Under the pieces are notes generated by a model. That model was not told the origin of the DNA, searched no databases, and was given only the letters and a program-made list of their open reading frames with translations. From assembly GCF_009914755.1 (NCBI RefSeq), contig NC_060947.1: 64,000 bases of DNA, one strand, 5' to 3'. Position numbers and translations under genes: made by a program. This DNA is from the human T2T-CHM13v2.0 reference genome, Homo sapiens. Position 1 is the first letter of the stretch. Each line of letters opens with the position of its first letter. Below, piece by piece: positions 43,001 through 52,000 of the stretch.

Positions 43001-46000
43001 AACACATAGTAATGGATGTTAATTCTATATCGTAACTGATATTACTATATTAATTGCAATATTATATTCAAACATAGTAACAAGCTACATGAATCTTAAA
43101 TCTTAAATGATAGTAGTATATTAATTATAATTGTATATTGCATTGTAGCATACAGCAACAGATAAACTGCATAATTCTATATTATAAATGATATTATTTT
43201 AATTAAAATCCGATATTACTTAGTGGCATGGTAATAAGCTACATAATTCTATATCATAAATGATACTATTATATTAATTGCAAGAGAATATTATAACACA
43301 TAGTAATAGATAAGCTACATTAATTGTATATCATCAACGAGACTATTATATTGATTGCAAGATAATTTTTGTTTTAATTTTTTATTTTTTGGAGACGAAG
43401 TCTTGCTCTGTTGCCTAAGTTGGAGTGCAGTGGGATGATCTCGGCTCACTGCAACTTCCGTCTCCCAGGTTCACGCAATTCTCCTGCCTCAGCCTCCTGA
43501 GTAGCTGGGATTACAGGCACCCGCCACCACGCCCAGCTAATTTTTGTATGTTTAGTAGAGACGGGGTTTCACCCTGTTGGTCAGGCTGGTCTCGAATTCC
43601 TGACCTCAGGTGATCTGTCCGCCTTGGCCTCCCAAAGTGCTAGGATTATAGGTATGAGCCACCGCGACCGGCCACAAGAGATTATAATACATAGTAATAG
43701 ATAAGCTACATTAATTCTATATCATAAATGATACTATGAAATCAATTGCAAGAGAATATTATAACACATAGTAACAGATAATCTACATTAATTCTATATC
43801 ATAAATGATACTGTGATATCAATTGTGACAATATTATAACACATAGTAATAGATAAGCTACATTAATTCTGTATCATCAATGATACTATGATATCAATTG
43901 CAAGAGGATATTATAACACATAGTAATAGATAAGCTACATTAATTGTATATCATAAATGATACTGTATCAATTGCGAGAAATTATTATAACACATAGTAA
44001 CAGATAAGCTACATTAATTGTATATCATCAATGATACTGTATCAATTGCAAGAGAATATTATAACACACAGTAACAGATAAGCTCCATTAATTCTGTATC
44101 ATTAATGGTATTATTAGGTTACTGCAATAGTGCATTACATTATAACATAGCAATAGCTAAGCTGTGCCACCAACTGCATCTTTTGAATGACGTTTATTTG
44201 TATCATGTATATTTACCACCCGCAAATCCCCTCATCACAGCAAAGGAATTTTCATAAGGGCCGAAGGGCAGGGGCCCCTTGCCTGGTACAGCCGGTTGGC
44301 CACCTCCAGGGCCTTCTGCTTGGCGGTCTCCATGGCGTACCCATACGGAGTAGCGAAGGAGGCTTTGTCCAGCTTCTCTTTAAACTTGGAGGGGACCACC
44401 TCAAACCTGAGACCCTGCAACAGTAGAAAAGGGGTCAGAAGGGTCAATGAAAGACCCTATGAAAAGTGAATGGGACATGCAAGATTTGCAGGACGCACAT
44501 AGCGTTTGCTACACTCCCCGACCCTGTCCCAGGTGAGCTCATCCATCCGCCAAGCTTTCCCTAAGTGTGGCTGGGGAGCCGGGGACTGACCAGGGCTTTC
44601 CCTAAGTGTGGTTAGTGGGCCGCGGACTGACCAGGGGCCTTCAGGGACTGACCAGGGGCCTTCTTGGCTCTCGAGGGAAGAGATTGGCAAAGGAAGAAGC
44701 CAGGAACAAAGAGGCCAGCAGGGAGGTATTGACTCGGGCCTTGAACCCACGAGCCAACAGTGTCCGAGGATTCCCAGAGACCTGAAGGTTGGGGCAGAGT
44801 ACAAAACCCAACCTGCCCACAGGAAATTCAGGAAAAACGCCAGCAATGATGGCTGTGGGAAGGGAGACAATGATGGCTCTACGTCAATCCCTGGCACCCA
44901 GGAAGAGACAACACCGCCCCTGGGGAGGCCTGGCCTAGAGGTAGTGACCCCTGCAGAGACCGTGGGGTCAGGAATGATGGTGGTAAATGCCTCCAGTGGG
45001 GGTGCCCCTGGCTGCCACACCCTGCCAGGGTGCAGGGAACTCCGCATCTCCCCTCTGACCATCTCCCCTCTGACAGAGCAAAAGCATCGCCATCTTGGAC
45101 ACACACCGCCATCTTGGAGAGACACCACCATCTTGGACGCATACCGCCATCGTGGACACACACACCGTCGTCGTGGACACACACTGCCATCTGGGACACA
45201 CACCGTCGTCGTGGACACACACCGCCGTCGTGGACACATGCCGCCATCTTGGACACACACCACCATCGTGGACACACACCGCCATCGTGGACACACACTG
45301 CCATCTGGGACACACACCGTCGTCGTGCACACACACCGCCGTCGTGGACACACGCCATCTTGGACACACGCCGCCATCATGGACACACACCGCCATCTTG
45401 GACAGACACCGCCATCTTGGACACACACCACCATCGTGGACACATGCCGCCATCTTGGCCATCATGGACACAGTGTCATTGTGGACACACACCGCCATCT
45501 TGGACAGACACCTCCATCTTGGACACACACCGCCATCATGGACACACACTGCCATCTTGGACAGACACCGCCATCGTGGACAGACACTGCCATCGTGGAC
45601 ACACACCGCCATCATGGACACACACCGCCATCGTGGACACACACTGCCATCTTGGCCATCGTGGACACACACCCCCATCGTGGACAGACATCATCGTGGA
45701 CACACACTGCCATCTTGGCCATCGTGGACACACACCCCCATCGTGGACAGACACCATCGTGGACACACACCGCCATTTTGGCCATCGAGGACACACACCA
45801 CCATCGTGGACAGACACCGCCGTCGTGGACAGACACCCCCATCATGGACACACACCGCCATCTTGGACAGACACCCCCGTCTTGGACAGACACTGCCATG
45901 TTGGACACACACTTCCATTTTAAGTTCCCTTGATTAAAAACTGCCTAAATCCAGCCCCCAAACATCAGCCTAATGGCTAATGTCAGCATGACCAGAAACA

Positions 46001-49000: not shown

Positions 49001-52000
49001 CTGTGAACTAAAAGCTAGATGTTTCAACGGGTGCTGCTTGGAAGGCCCCTAAAGAGTGCTACCAGGAACAAATCAACCTCTTCCCCTCCAGGGCTGTGTT
49101 TGGTGACCCGTAATAACCACCTCCCTCAGCAGGAAGTGGCCAGAAAGAACACACCACCCCTCGTCCTGTTATAACTAGAGGGTCTGGATTCACAGAGCAG
49201 GAGCATTGCCATCTTCGACACACACTGCCATCTTGGACCCATTACACCATCTTGGACACACACCGCCATCTTGGATAAGCACCACCATCTTGGACACACA
49301 ACATCTTGGACACACATGGCCATCTTGGAGAAGCACCACCATCTTGGACACACACTGCCATCTTGGATAAGCACCACCATCTTGGACACACACCATCTTG
49401 GACACACACGGCCATGTTGGAGAAGCACCACCATCTTGGACACACACCGCCATCTGGGAGAAGCACCACCATCTTGGACACACACCATCTTGGACACACA
49501 CGGCCATCTTGGATAAGCACCACCATCTTGGAGACACACCATCTTGGACACACACCGCCATCTTGGATAAGCACCACCATCTTGGAGACACACCATCTTG
49601 GACACACACCGCCATCTTGGAGAAGCACCACCATCTTGGACACACACCATCTTGGACAAGCACTGCCATCTTGGACATGCATGGCCATCTTTGACACACA
49701 CCACCATCTTGGACACACACCGCCATCTTGGATAAGCACCACCATCTTGGACACACACAGCTATCTTGGATAAGCACTACCATCTTGGACACACACCATC
49801 TGGGACACACACTGCCATCTTGGACCCATAACACCATCTTGGACAAGCACCGCCATCTTGGACACACCGCCATCTTGGATACACAACACCATCTTGGAAA
49901 AGCACCACCATCTTGGACACACACCGCCATCTTGGATAAGAACCACCATCTTGGACACACACCATCTTGGACACACACCGCCATCTTGGATAAGAACCAC
50001 CATCTTGGACACACACCATCTTGGACACACACAGCCATCTTGGATAAGCACCACCATCTTGGACACACACCATCTTGGACACACACCGCCATCTTGGATA
50101 AGCACCACCATCTTGGACACACACCGCCATCTTGGATAAGCACCACCATCTTGGACACACACCATCTTGGACACACACTGCCATCTTGGATAAGCACCAC
50201 CATCTTGGACACACAACATCTTGGACACACACCGCCATCTTGGATAAGCACCACCATCTTGGACACACACCATCTGGGACACACACTGCCATCTTGGACC
50301 CATAACACCATCTTGGACAAGCACCACCATCTTGGACACACCGCCATCTTGGACACGCCACCATCTTGGATACACACCACCATCTTGGAAAAGCACCACC
50401 ATCTTGGACACACAACATCTTGGACACACACTGCCATCTTGGATAAGCACCACCATCTTGGACACATGCCGCCATCTTGGACACACACTGCCATCTTGGA
50501 TAAGCACCACCATCTTGGACACACACCATCTTGGACACACACGGCCATCTTGGATAAGCACCACCATCTTGGACACACACCGCCATCTTGGATAAGCACC
50601 ACCATCTTGGAGACACACCATCTTGGACACACACTGCCATCTTGGAGAAGCACCACCATCTTGGACACACACCATCTGGGACACACACCACCATCTTGGA
50701 TAAGCACCACCATCTTGGACACACACCGCCATCTTGGATAAGCACCACCATCTTGGACAAGCACTGCCATCTTGGACATGCATGGTCATCTTTGACACAC
50801 ACCACCATCTTGGACACACACCGCCATCTTGGACAAGCATTGCCATTTTAAGTTCCCGTGATTAAAAACTGCCTAAAACCAGCCCCAAAACATCAGCCTA
50901 ATGGCTAATGTCAGCATGACCAGAAACAGTCAAAGCCTGAAATAAACCGCCTCTGACCAGAAACATCCCAAGCCCAAGATAACCTCCTTCAGACCAGAGA
51001 CATTCTAACACCTCAGTCAACTTTGCCTCACAGGGAAACATTCCGAGCCTGCGATAAGATTCCCCTTCCTAAACCCTTAAATACCCTTAGTCTGTAAGAG
51101 AGAACACTCCTGACCTAACTCAGCCAGAAGCCCCGCTCAGGCTTGTTCTCCAAAATAAACCCATCTTTGACTGTGAAGCTGCTTTTCTTTTTTCGTCTTT
51201 CTTCCACTCTTCTACACTCCTCAGCGCTCCTCACCTCTTGAAGGTGCCCCCAGATCCTGGCCCTGACGCCCATCCCGGTCTTCAGGGCACCAGTCACCAA
51301 GCCCTGGACCTGCCCTGCAGATCTCAACCCCAGATCATATAGACCCCTGCCCTATGCCCTGTCACCCCCAATCATGGAGACCCATGCCTTCTGTGAGGCA
51401 CCCTGACCACTCTCATCCCCGTCACTAGGACCAGGCATGTGGTGTCCCCCCTCCCAGGGTACCAGACCTCCAGTCCGTAGTCCCCAAGAGTAGACTCCTG
51501 CCCCACTGCACCATCCATAGGCAACCAGTAACTACCCTACCATCACCAGTAACTTCTCTGCCATCACCAGTAACTACCTCACATCACCAGTAACTACCCC
51601 CCATCACCAGTAACTATGCCCCATCATCAAACCCAGTAACTACCCCCCATCACCAGTAACTATCCACCATCACCAGTAACTATCCCCCATCACCAGTAAC
51701 TATGCCCCATCATCACCAGTAACTATCCCCCCATCACCAGTAACTATCTCCCATCAACAGTAACTATCCTCCCATCACCAGTAACTATCCCCACATCACC
51801 AGTAACTACCCCCATCACCAATAACTATGCCCCATCATCAAACCCAGTAACTATCCCACCATCACCAGTAACTAACCCCCACCACCAGTAAATATGCCCC
51901 ATCATCACCAGTAACTATCCCTCATCACCGGTAACTACGCCCCATCACCAGTAACTATCTCCCATCACCAGTAACTATCCCCCATCACCAGTAACTATCC

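What the first reader, a model, noticed from the sequence alone, without database searches (positions are those of the whole stretch)
45071..51216. Both LTRs of a HERV-F-type provirus have their U3 YY1 motif amplified into long tandem arrays in ASMTL intron 1
Seen: at the start of each LTR, the short segment between GCAT(C/T)GCCATCTT and CCATTTTAAGTTCCC is expanded to about 0.83 kb (5' LTR) and about 1.64 kb (3' LTR). By hand count the 3' array has about 33 GCCATNTT sites, roughly half of them the full CCGCCATCTT, and the 5' array has about 14. Established: CCGCCATNTT is the YY1 (and ZFP42/YY2) consensus; YY1 binds the equivalent CGCCATTTT upstream conserved region of MuLV LTRs; tandem YY1 arrays occur in first introns of PEG3 and GNAS/Nespas and in XIST. 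Inference: this is a retrovirus-seeded, copy-number-variable YY1 platform 4-10 kb from the ASMTL promoter that could act in looping, insulation or silencing on a locus shared by X and Y.
Basis: partly seen in the sequence, partly recalled or inferred. Interest (0 to 1): 0.8.

Follow-up and report, generated by a model that had tools for sequence, protein, structure and literature searches.

The report
Retroviral LTR motif grown into minisatellites
Both ends of an old, gutted endogenous retrovirus inside the human ASMTL gene have each turned one short YY1-type motif into a long tandem array, which is real and found nowhere else in this genome but looks more like ordinary minisatellite growth than a proven regulatory device.

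Summary
Two 19-bp tandem arrays sit at 45088-45912 (41 units) and 49208-50835 (87 units), each at the start of one LTR of a deleted provirus with a tRNA-Phe primer site. The provirus lies in ASMTL intron 1, antisense to the gene.

Of 28 other copies of the LTR family, 27 carry one unit plus a second CCATTTT box 19 bp away, and one carries two units. Genome-wide, the two-unit pattern occurs only here (X and Y copies) and in that chr2 LTR.

The best reading is minisatellite birth by slippage between the two native boxes, in an intron that is 52% tandem repeat. The X and Y haplotypes differ by two unit-scale indels in the 5' array; the 3' array is identical.

Sequence argues against maintained YY1 binding. 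25 of 41 5' units have lost the core. Only 16 of the 3' array's units keep the motif CpG; 41 of the 87 parsed units carry its decay forms.

The 5' array is CpG-island-like (observed/expected 0.81), so occupancy remains possible. YY1 binding and function are untested.

The parts
45045..45074 (+). Perfect 15-bp tandem duplication spanning the host/5' LTR junction (11 flank bases plus the first 4 LTR bases)
   Evidence: TRF period 15, 2.0 copies, 100% matches; sequence. It shows local tandem duplication after integration.
45071..46491 (+). 5' LTR (TG...CA), interrupted by the array and by an Alu; it lacks the stretch that carries the TATA-like and AATAAA signals in the 3' LTR
   Evidence: Alignment of the two LTR starts and tails; 195 matches and 28 mismatches to the 3' LTR over the part before the Alu (87.4%).
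45088..45912 (+). 5' array: 41 parsed units (33 of them 19 bp), GC 0.589, 53 CpG, CpG observed/expected 0.81; 16 CCATNTT, 14 GCCATNTT, 8 CCGCCATNTT
   Evidence: Length-polymorphic between the X and Y haplotypes: one 19-bp and one 63-bp indel.
46152..46455 (-). Alu inserted in the 5' LTR
   Evidence: Read (poly-T head, Alu body); matches the Alus inside locus L068 at 82% (46155-46450).
46494..46511 (+). Primer-binding site TGGTGCCGAAACCCAGGA, complementary to the 3' end of tRNA-Phe(GAA) plus CCA at 17 of 18 bases
   Evidence: Sequence. The 22-base pattern hit 6 places; the 3 loci scanned with ARAGORN each hold a tRNA-Phe gene whose 3' end is at the match.
46492..49189 (+). Remnant internal region: leader (46455-47018 and 47334-47550 align to the chr1 relative L068 at 950-1603) and the last ~70 bases before the 3' LTR (49123-49189). 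gag-pol-env are absent.
   Evidence: blastn of the window against provirus L068. The 3' internal end is shared with L005, L014, L015, L028 and L030.
47749..48433 (+). Solo LTR (TG...CA) of another, more abundant and less diverged family, inserted into the internal region
   Evidence: Own-genome search: 603 first-look candidates, 40 scored at 90-92% identity; other copies carry about 115 bp more after query base 109.
48440..48745 (-). Second Alu
   Evidence: Read; 88.9-89.9% to Alus in L068.
49190..51216 (+). 3' LTR (TC...CA) with a TATA-like TTAAATA at 51077 and AATAAA at 51154, which places the array at the 5' start of U3
   Evidence: 381-bp tail is 74-85% identical to the 38 other genomic copies scored.
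49208..50835 (+). 3' array: 87 parsed units (67 of 19 bp, 17 of 16 bp, 3 of 17 bp) in 54- and 92-bp higher-order repeats; CpG observed/expected 0.24; 80 CCATNTT, 33 GCCATNTT, 16 CCGCCATCTT
   Evidence: Identical (1640 of 1640 bases) on the X and Y haplotypes.

Best explanation
These are two LTR-seeded minisatellites.

The seed. The LTR family starts with two YY1-type boxes 19 bp apart: (C/T)(G/A)CCATCTT, then a GGACAA(A/G)CAC spacer, then CCATTTTAAG. These are a pair of non-contiguous direct repeats. Slipped-strand mispairing or unequal exchange between them duplicated the 19-bp interval.

Why both LTRs. They start as copies of one U3, so both inherited the same seed. It may already have been duplicated, as in the two-unit chr2 relative.

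Growth. After integration each LTR grew and turned over on its own, in a PAR1 intron that is half tandem repeat.

Outcome. The result is 128 head-to-tail units with 96 CCATNTT cores (16 in the 5' array, 80 in the 3' array) and 24 full CCGCCATNTT sites. All point one way, antisense to ASMTL.

What is shown and what is inferred. Shown: the anatomy, the single-unit state of relatives, uniqueness in this genome, unit-scale polymorphism, and independent turnover. Inferred: the slippage mechanism, the role of PAR1 recombination, and that multiplying the YY1 motif is a by-product rather than a selected function. YY1 may still bind unmethylated units, most plausibly in the CpG-island-like 5' array.
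For: 1. Relatives. 27 of 28 other family copies fetched have one unit plus the second box, with 52-54 bp from the LTR start to TTTAAGTTCCC in the 25 the script could measure and the same layout read by eye in L024 and L028. One (L004, a chr2 solo LTR) has two units. L026 and L027 are the X and Y copies of one place.

2. Uniqueness. CCATCTTGGA-N9-CCATCTTGGA occurs 100 times in the genome: 49 at this locus on X, 50 at its Y copy, 1 in L004. The reversed control gives 0.

3. The seed is widespread. The looser 19-bp two-box pattern gives 292 matches against 35 for the control. By my own count of overlapping matches 119 are this locus on X and Y, and about half of the 100 rows the tool listed are single LTR starts.

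4. Fit to a birth model. The last array unit is incomplete (only the CCATTTT box). Slippage at non-contiguous repeats is a published minisatellite birth model with exactly that hallmark (passages of PMC3389668).

5. Local context. The window holds about 16 distinct tandem arrays. 5322 of the 10,241 intron-1 bases (52%) are four arrays. A 15-bp duplication spans the LTR junction.

6. Ongoing mutation at unit scale. The X and Y haplotypes differ in the 5' array by one 19-bp indel, one 63-bp indel and one CpG transition.

7. Independent turnover. No 57-bp window at the edge of the 5' array finds its best match at the edge of the 3' array. CCATCGTGGA occurs 13 times in the 5' array and 0 times in the 3' array.

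8. No sign of motif maintenance. 25 of 41 5' units lack CCATNTT. In the 3' array, 15 of the 87 parsed units read CCGCCATCTTGG (16 CCGCCATCTT over the whole array), while 31 read CCACCAT and 10 read CTGCCAT, the two CpG-decay products.
Against: - Two other family copies lie in PAR1. The one examined (L026/L027) has a single, degenerate unit and did not expand; the other (X:1955766) was not fetched. So PAR1 location alone is not sufficient.
- Two expansions at the same site in one provirus, against none in the 26 other places, is a coincidence unless the seed was special.
- The 5' array keeps CpG observed/expected at 0.81, the same as the ASMTL promoter stretch (0.82) and far above the LTR tails (0.36-0.41). 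That would fit germline hypomethylation, as at protected, factor-bound islands.
- In the 3' array CCATCTTGGA is 94-100% conserved across the 19-bp units, while the flanks are 52-73%.
- Only 40 of 469 first-look family candidates were scored.
- No primate orthologue and only two human haplotypes could be examined.
Confidence: 0.7

Rival explanations
1. Functional YY1 platform. The arrays, or at least the CpG-rich 5' array, are bound by many YY1 molecules. They would act as a copy-number-variable insulator, loop anchor, silencer or factor sink for ASMTL and its neighbours on both X and Y, like the YY1 clusters of Peg3, Nespas and Xist.
For: - 24 full CCGCCATNTT sites and 48 GCCATNTT sites in one orientation, 4-10 kb from the promoter.
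- These forms are among the published YY1 consensus forms (PMC7086370 passage).
- Tandem YY1 arrays in the control regions of imprinted genes are established (PMC1904287 passage).
- Among the nine other short-period arrays fetched from the genome-wide scan, this locus has the most full motifs: 24, against 18 for the next.
- The 5' array meets sequence criteria for a CpG island: 825 bp, GC 0.589, observed/expected 0.81.
- Copy number of YY1/CTCF-motif repeats at DXZ4 has a measurable phenotype (PMC13622753 passages).
Against: - No occupancy, methylation or expression data could be reached.
- 25 of 41 5' units have lost the CCATNTT core. Changes such as CTT to CGT and CAT to CGT raise CpG while moving away from the consensus.
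- In the 3' array the motif CpG survives in only 16 units, with observed/expected 0.24, the mark of germline methylation. YY1 binding is reported to be methylation-sensitive (known here only from a reference title seen).
- No GCCATNTT lies within 54000-56200 around the promoter.
- No paper linking ASMTL, this array or the LTR family to YY1 was found.
Confidence: 0.12
2. Pre-integration amplification. The infecting virus already carried several tandem copies of the box in U3, an enhancer-repeat variant as in other gammaretroviruses. Both LTRs would then have been born with an array, and later events only reshaped it.
For: - Both LTRs are expanded at exactly the same site.
- Both arrays share the GGACACACAC spacer, seen in only 2 of the 28 other copies (L004 and L012).
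- L004 has two units, so duplication did occur in this lineage.
- LTR12 is a precedent: its U3 repeats are thought to have existed in the original element and spread by transposition (PMC3389668 passage).
Against: - No other genomic copy has more than two units.
- The arrays share no positional register, so nothing beyond one or two ancestral units is recoverable.
- The LTR tails of L004 are no closer to this provirus than other copies are (85.0-87.5% against 87.5-88.8% for L003).
Confidence: 0.25
3. One expansion plus transfer. The array arose in one LTR and was copied into the other by gene conversion or unequal exchange between the LTRs.
For: Non-allelic gene conversion among LTRs is documented in humans (PMC4921805, title and abstract start in the listing only). 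The two LTRs lie 4 kb apart in a recombination-rich region.
Against: - The LTR tails next to the arrays are 12.6% different (28 of 223 aligned bases; K2P 0.137), as far from each other as from unrelated copies. No recent conversion tract reaches them.
- The arrays have different unit repertoires.
Confidence: 0.08

Closest known systems
TE-derived minisatellites, especially the U3 tandem repeats of LTR12 (HERV-9)
   Same: A short stretch of an LTR's U3 carrying transcription-factor motifs is repeated head to tail, and copy number differs between loci. About 23% of human minisatellites/satellites were assigned to TEs (PMC3389668 passages; PMC11853044 seen only in the listing).
   Different: LTR12 repeats are a family-wide trait thought to have spread by transposition. 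Here the array is confined to one provirus, and 27 of 28 relatives have a single unit. Its 19-bp unit and 75-76% unit matching would also have fallen outside that survey's filters (unit over 20 bp, at least 95% identity).
Clustered YY1 sites of imprinting and X-inactivation control regions (Peg3, Gnas/Nespas, Xist/Tsix)
   Same: Many same-orientation CpG-containing YY1 consensus sites in or near a first intron; the 5' array is CpG-island-like (PMC1904287 passage).
   Different: Those clusters are conserved, are bound in a methylation-sensitive and allele-specific way, and are functionally tested. Here binding is untested, the motifs are decaying, and the spacing is a strict 19-bp minisatellite of retroviral origin.
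DXPas34 (mouse Tsix) and DXZ4 (human X)
   Same: X-linked tandem repeats carrying motifs for YY1-family or CTCF factors. DXPas34 is described as ERV-like in sequence (PMC3915180 passage). DXZ4 copy number with intact CTCF and YY1 motifs associates with X loss (PMC13622753 passages).
   Different: DXPas34 is a mouse element and DXZ4 is a 3-kb macrosatellite. Both have demonstrated binding and function; the ASMTL arrays have none shown, and no CTCF-like motif was found in them.
YY1 site of the upstream conserved region of murine leukaemia virus LTRs (CGCCATTTT)
   Same: In this family's copies, the second box begins about 35 bases from the LTR start. It reads CGCCAT in 2 of the 28 other copies and as the CpG-decay forms TGCCAT or CACCAT in most of the rest. 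It sits near the U3 5' end, as recalled for MuLV. CGCCATTTT is listed among YY1 consensus forms.
   Different: The position in MuLV and its role in silencing are recalled, or known here only from a reference title (Schlesinger 2013, seen). Homology of the two sites was not tested.
HERV-F/H group proviruses (HERVFH19/LTR19, HERVFH21, HERV-Fc in Repbase naming)
   Same: tRNA-Phe primer-binding site, paired LTRs, and a shared 3' internal end with five other proviral copies. Repbase names were seen in PMC5753468.
   Different: Which named family it belongs to could not be tested. The coding region is deleted and replaced in part by a foreign solo LTR and an Alu.

Membership tests
TE-derived minisatellite (VNTR) | Head-to-tail repeats of a 10-100 bp unit | tested here: met
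   Period 19, 42.0 and 88.7 copies; 41 and 87 parsed units.
TE-derived minisatellite (VNTR) | The unit is a segment of a transposable element that is single-copy in other members | tested here: met
   27 of 28 other LTR copies have one unit and 1 has two. The two-unit pattern occurs elsewhere in the genome only in that one copy.
TE-derived minisatellite (VNTR) | Copy number varies between haplotypes | tested here: inconclusive
   Two haplotypes only. The 5' array is 835 vs 791 bp (19-bp and 63-bp indels); the 3' array is identical at 1640 of 1640 bases.
Clustered YY1-binding array (Peg3/Xist/Nespas type) | Many consensus YY1 motifs in one orientation | tested here: met
   48 GCCATNTT and 24 CCGCCATNTT in 45000-51300, all on the + strand. 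Consensus forms from PMC7086370.
Clustered YY1-binding array (Peg3/Xist/Nespas type) | YY1 occupancy in cells | not testable with these tools
   No ChIP, CUT&RUN or footprint data are reachable. No paper on it was found.
Clustered YY1-binding array (Peg3/Xist/Nespas type) | CpG island with differential or protected methylation | tested here: inconclusive
   Sequence criterion met by the 5' array (observed/expected 0.81, GC 0.589, 825 bp) and failed by the 3' array (0.24). The methylation state itself is not testable.
Clustered YY1-binding array (Peg3/Xist/Nespas type) | Motifs maintained by selection or conserved between species | tested here: inconclusive
   Within the arrays, 25 of 41 5' units lack the core, and 16 units of the 3' array keep the CpG form, against 41 of its 87 parsed units in decayed form. 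No other primate genome is available.
HERV-F-type (tRNA-Phe primed, class I) provirus | Primer-binding site complementary to tRNA-Phe next to the 5' LTR | tested here: met
   46494-46511 matches at 17 of 18 bases. The pattern marks the 3' end of tRNA-Phe(GAA) genes in 3 of 3 loci scanned.
HERV-F-type (tRNA-Phe primed, class I) provirus | Two LTRs in the same orientation flanking gag-pol-env | tested here: not met
   LTRs are present, but only the leader and the last ~70 internal bases align to a relative. The coding region is missing. It is a remnant, not a full provirus.
HERV-F-type (tRNA-Phe primed, class I) provirus | Target-site duplication | tested here: inconclusive
   The flanks read CCCCTC and CTCCTC, 5 of 6 alike. 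The expected length for this family was not established.
   No Dfam or Repbase library is on hand. PMC5753468 only lists candidate names.

The most novel reading that the evidence does not exclude
The 5' array is a germline-hypomethylated, retrovirus-born CpG island occupied by many YY1 (or ZFP42/YY2) molecules. Its copy number, which already differs between the only two haplotypes seen, would tune ASMTL, ASMTL-AS1 or neighbouring PAR1 genes, or local chromatin contacts, on both X and Y. It may be one of a small set of YY1-motif minisatellites concentrated in PAR1: three further places with paired full motifs lie there or elsewhere on X.
Probability: 0.12. Interest if true: 0.65.

Novelty: new member of a known kind. 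Interest (0 to 1): 0.38.

Why it matters
If the arrays bind YY1, they would be a natural allelic series of YY1 site number beside a gene that escapes X inactivation and is shared by X and Y. That would be a ready-made test of whether YY1 dosage at a locus changes looping or expression.

Even if neutral, the locus shows the birth of a minisatellite unusually clearly:
- the two-box seed is still visible in dozens of relatives;
- a two-unit intermediate survives on chr2;
- two independently evolved descendants sit 4 kb apart.

It also carries a practical warning. YY1 ChIP reads from these 2.5 kb of near-identical motifs are likely to be lost or mis-placed on older assemblies (my inference, not tested).

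Tried and rejected
- The key paper on clustered YY1 sites (PMC1484457) is not held, so that work is cited only through another paper's introduction and reference list.
- Literature searches found nothing on this array or on YY1 at this LTR family: ASMTL+YY1, LTR19+tandem repeat, YY1+pseudoautosomal+tandem repeat, HERV-F+YY1, YY1 binding sites+tandem array+LTR, ASMTL+VNTR, and YY1 motif+VNTR. 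The preprint 10.1101/044172 does not mention ASMTL or PAR1 repeats. Supplementary tables were not searched.
- I looked for positional orthology between the two arrays, which would have shown an array inherited from the virus. There was none.
- PRDM9 13-mer and CTCF-like motifs: 0 in the arrays and 0 in intron 1. ZFP57 TGCCGC: only 3 in the arrays.
- Long open frames through the arrays (up to 531 codons) are a mechanical result of stop-poor repeats and were dismissed.
- No tRNA gene lies in 44000-52000.
- I could not assign a Dfam family name, date the expansion with primate orthologues, or sample more than two human haplotypes.

Full report
**What is there.** Tandem Repeats Finder reports two period-19 arrays:
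- 45088-45912: 42.0 copies, 76% matches.
- 49208-50835: 88.7 copies, 75% matches, with higher-order periods of 54 bp (84%) and 92 bp.

Reading the sequence and aligning the two ends shows that each array sits about 15 bases inside an LTR.
- The 5' LTR runs 45071-46491 and the 3' LTR runs 49190-51216.
- The 5' LTR is followed, after two bases, by TGGTGCCGAAACCCAGGA (46494-46511).
- A 22-base pattern for the complement of the tRNA-Phe 3' end hit six places in the genome. In the three loci I scanned, ARAGORN places the 3' end of a tRNA-Phe(GAA) gene at the match. The window's primer site therefore matches tRNA-Phe plus CCA at 17 of 18 bases.
- The 3' LTR has a TATA-like TTAAATA at 51077 and AATAAA at 51154, so the array lies at the 5' start of U3.

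On the hub's gene table the element lies in ASMTL intron 1, antisense to the gene, 3982 to 9729 bp from the exon-1 5' end at 54817.

| Motif | 5' array | 3' array |
|---|---|---|
| GCCATNTT | 14 | 33 |
| CCGCCATCTT | 7 | 16 |
| CCATNTT | 16 | 80 |

Every one is on the + strand. The other 61,538 bases of the window hold nine GCCATNTT over both strands and no CCGCCATNTT. These strings are among the YY1 consensus forms listed in a review (passage of PMC7086370).

**The provirus is a remnant.** I compared it with a relative on chr1 (L068).
- Only the leader (46455-47018 and 47334-47550) and the last ~70 internal bases (49123-49189) align; gag-pol-env are gone.
- The gap holds a solo LTR of another family at 47749-48433. 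That family gave 603 first-look candidates, of which 40 were scored at 90-92% identity.
- The gap also holds an Alu at 48440-48745.
- A second Alu (46152-46455) splits the 5' LTR, which lacks the stretch carrying the promoter and poly(A) signals of the 3' LTR.
- The LTR tails differ at 28 of 223 aligned bases (87.4% identity, K2P 0.137). That is as far apart as either is from unrelated copies, such as L003 at 87.5-88.8%. The insertion is therefore old.
- With recalled neutral substitution rates this means tens of millions of years. The faster PAR1 clock makes any figure loose.

**Is the array a family trait?** No.
- A search of the same assembly with the 381-bp 3' LTR tail gave 469 first-look candidates. 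Of these, 40 were scored and 30 were fetched as loci.
- Apart from the locus itself and its Y copy, there are 28 loci at 27 places, because L026 and L027 are an X/Y pair.
- 27 of the 28 have a single unit followed by the second box. In the 25 of these that the script could measure, the span from the LTR start to TTTAAGTTCCC is 52-54 bp. For L024 and L028 I read the one-unit layout by eye.
- One copy, the chr2 solo LTR L004, has two units.
- Genome-wide, CCATCTTGGA-N9-CCATCTTGGA occurs 100 times: 49 here on X, 50 in the Y copy, 1 in L004. The reversed control gives 0.
- The looser two-box pattern at 19-bp spacing gives 292 matches against 35 for the control. By my own count of overlapping matches, 119 belong to this locus on X and Y. 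About half of the first 100 rows the tool listed are single LTR starts across chromosomes 1-10, and only the chr2 copy shows consecutive hits.

It was passed with genomic copies rather than the Dfam model.

**How the arrays probably arose.**
- *The seed.* In the relatives, the dinucleotide before the first CCAT is a mixture of CG, CA and TG, as expected from an old CpG. The second box shows the same mixture. The family therefore began with two YY1-type boxes 19 bp apart, which is exactly the array period.
- *A known model.* Two non-contiguous direct repeats are the substrate of a published minisatellite birth model. Its hallmark is an incomplete terminal unit (passages of PMC3389668). Here the last unit is only the CCATTTT box.
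- *A shared spacer.* Both arrays share the spacer GGACACACAC, found in only 2 of the 28 other copies, L004 and L012. This spacer contains an (AC)n run, which may explain the 16-, 17- and 21-bp units.
- *The setting is repeat-prone.* The window has about 16 distinct tandem arrays. 5322 of the 10,241 intron-1 bases (52%) are four arrays. A perfect 15-bp duplication spans the host/LTR junction.
- *Unit-scale mutation is visible.* Against the Y contig of the same assembly (L031), the 5' array carries one 19-bp indel, one 63-bp indel and a single CpG transition. The 3' array is identical at all 1640 bases. The 3285 bases between the arrays differ at 9 sites plus two 1-bp indels.
- *The arrays evolved apart.* CCATCGTGGA occurs 13 times in the 5' array and never in the 3' array. 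No edge window of one array finds its best match at the edge of the other.

Whether more than one or two units were already present in the virus cannot be recovered from this genome.

**Does it work as a YY1 platform?** Nothing here measures binding. The sequence evidence points both ways.

For:
- The locus holds 24 full CCGCCATNTT sites. That is the most among the nine other short-period arrays I fetched from a genome-wide scan for two full motifs within 45 bp. That scan gave 71 matches against 1 for the control.
- The next richest is a 32-bp, 36-copy PAR1 array with 18 full sites.
- The 5' array is CpG-island-like: 825 bp, GC 0.589, CpG observed/expected 0.81. The ASMTL promoter stretch scores 0.82 and the LTR tails 0.36-0.41.

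Against:
- 25 of 41 5' units have lost CCATNTT. The changes that raise CpG there (CTT to CGT, CAT to CGT) move away from the consensus.
- Among the 87 parsed 3' units, 15 read CCGCCATCTTGG (16 CCGCCATCTT over the whole array). Another 31 read CCACCAT and 10 read CTGCCAT, the two CpG-decay products. CpG observed/expected is 0.24. That is the mark of germline methylation, and YY1 binding is reported to be methylation-sensitive (known here only from a reference title).
- No GCCATNTT lies within 54000-56200 around the promoter.
- No PRDM9 13-mer or CTCF-like motif lies in the arrays.

**Comparison with what is known.**
- TE-derived minisatellites are common, about 23% of human minisatellites/satellites. 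LTR12 is the classic U3 case (PMC3389668 passages).
- Tandem YY1 arrays mark control regions of imprinted genes (PMC1904287 passage).
- Mouse DXPas34 is described as an ERV-like repeat with CTCF and REX1 motifs (PMC3915180 passage).
- The number of DXZ4 repeats with intact CTCF and YY1 motifs associates with X loss (PMC13622753 passages).
- Seven searches found no paper on this array. Supplements were not searched.

I therefore file it as a new member of a known kind: an LTR-seeded minisatellite that happens to multiply a YY1 motif.

**Verdict.**
- Best explanation: slippage-born, recombination-fed minisatellites, confidence 0.7.
- Functional YY1 platform: 0.12.
- Interest: 0.38.

Noticed in passing
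L069:1790-2920 (G000:C23, about 1,975.5-1,976.6 kb; Y copy near C24:2,039.4-2,040.1 kb): A second PAR1 minisatellite built on a YY1-type motif. It has a 32-bp unit, 35.9 copies and 93% matches, with 18 full CCGCCATNTT and 26 GCCATNTT, all on one strand. Each unit reads ...ATGCCGCCATTTT..., so the ZFP57 hexamer TGCCGC (recalled) overlaps the YY1 core. The flanks show no obvious LTR.
   Followed up: partly
G000 places listed; loci L070, L073, L075: Short 22-23-bp arrays of the form CCGCCATCTTGGGAG(C/T)GGCC recur at about ten places. Examples are X:112.0 Mb with 8.7 copies, chr8:132.47 Mb with 3.7 copies and PAR1 X:0.90 Mb with 6 copies. They look like relatives of one another; the source element was not identified. 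By my count of the rows, 9 of the 32 distinct places with paired full YY1 motifs are on X (counting the two ASMTL arrays apart and not counting Y copies).
   Followed up: partly
window:52329-54577 and 51524-52143: Two further minisatellites fill the promoter-proximal part of ASMTL intron 1. One has a 35-bp unit and 63.6 copies, ending 79 bp from exon 1. The other has a 20-bp unit and 29.8 copies. More arrays (39-bp and 38-bp units) lie just upstream of exon 1 at 54872-55264 and 55589-56016.
   Followed up: no
window:45045-45074: A perfect 15-bp tandem duplication that spans the host/5' LTR junction, so it arose after integration.
   Followed up: partly
window:46530-46750: The proviral leader appears to carry a tandem duplication of about 110-120 bp. 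Two window stretches (46143-46629 and 46641-47018) align to overlapping parts of relative L068, at 644-1113 and 996-1364.
   Followed up: no
window:47749-48433: A solo LTR of a different, abundant family is nested in the provirus. The family gave 603 first-look candidates, with the scored copies 90-92% identical. This copy lacks about 115 bp that the others have after its base 109.
   Followed up: partly
window:7316-11126, 25116-26611, 59499-62559: Very long degenerate tetranucleotide arrays: GATG/CATC-type of about 3.8 kb and 1.5 kb, and TCTA of about 3.1 kb.
   Followed up: no
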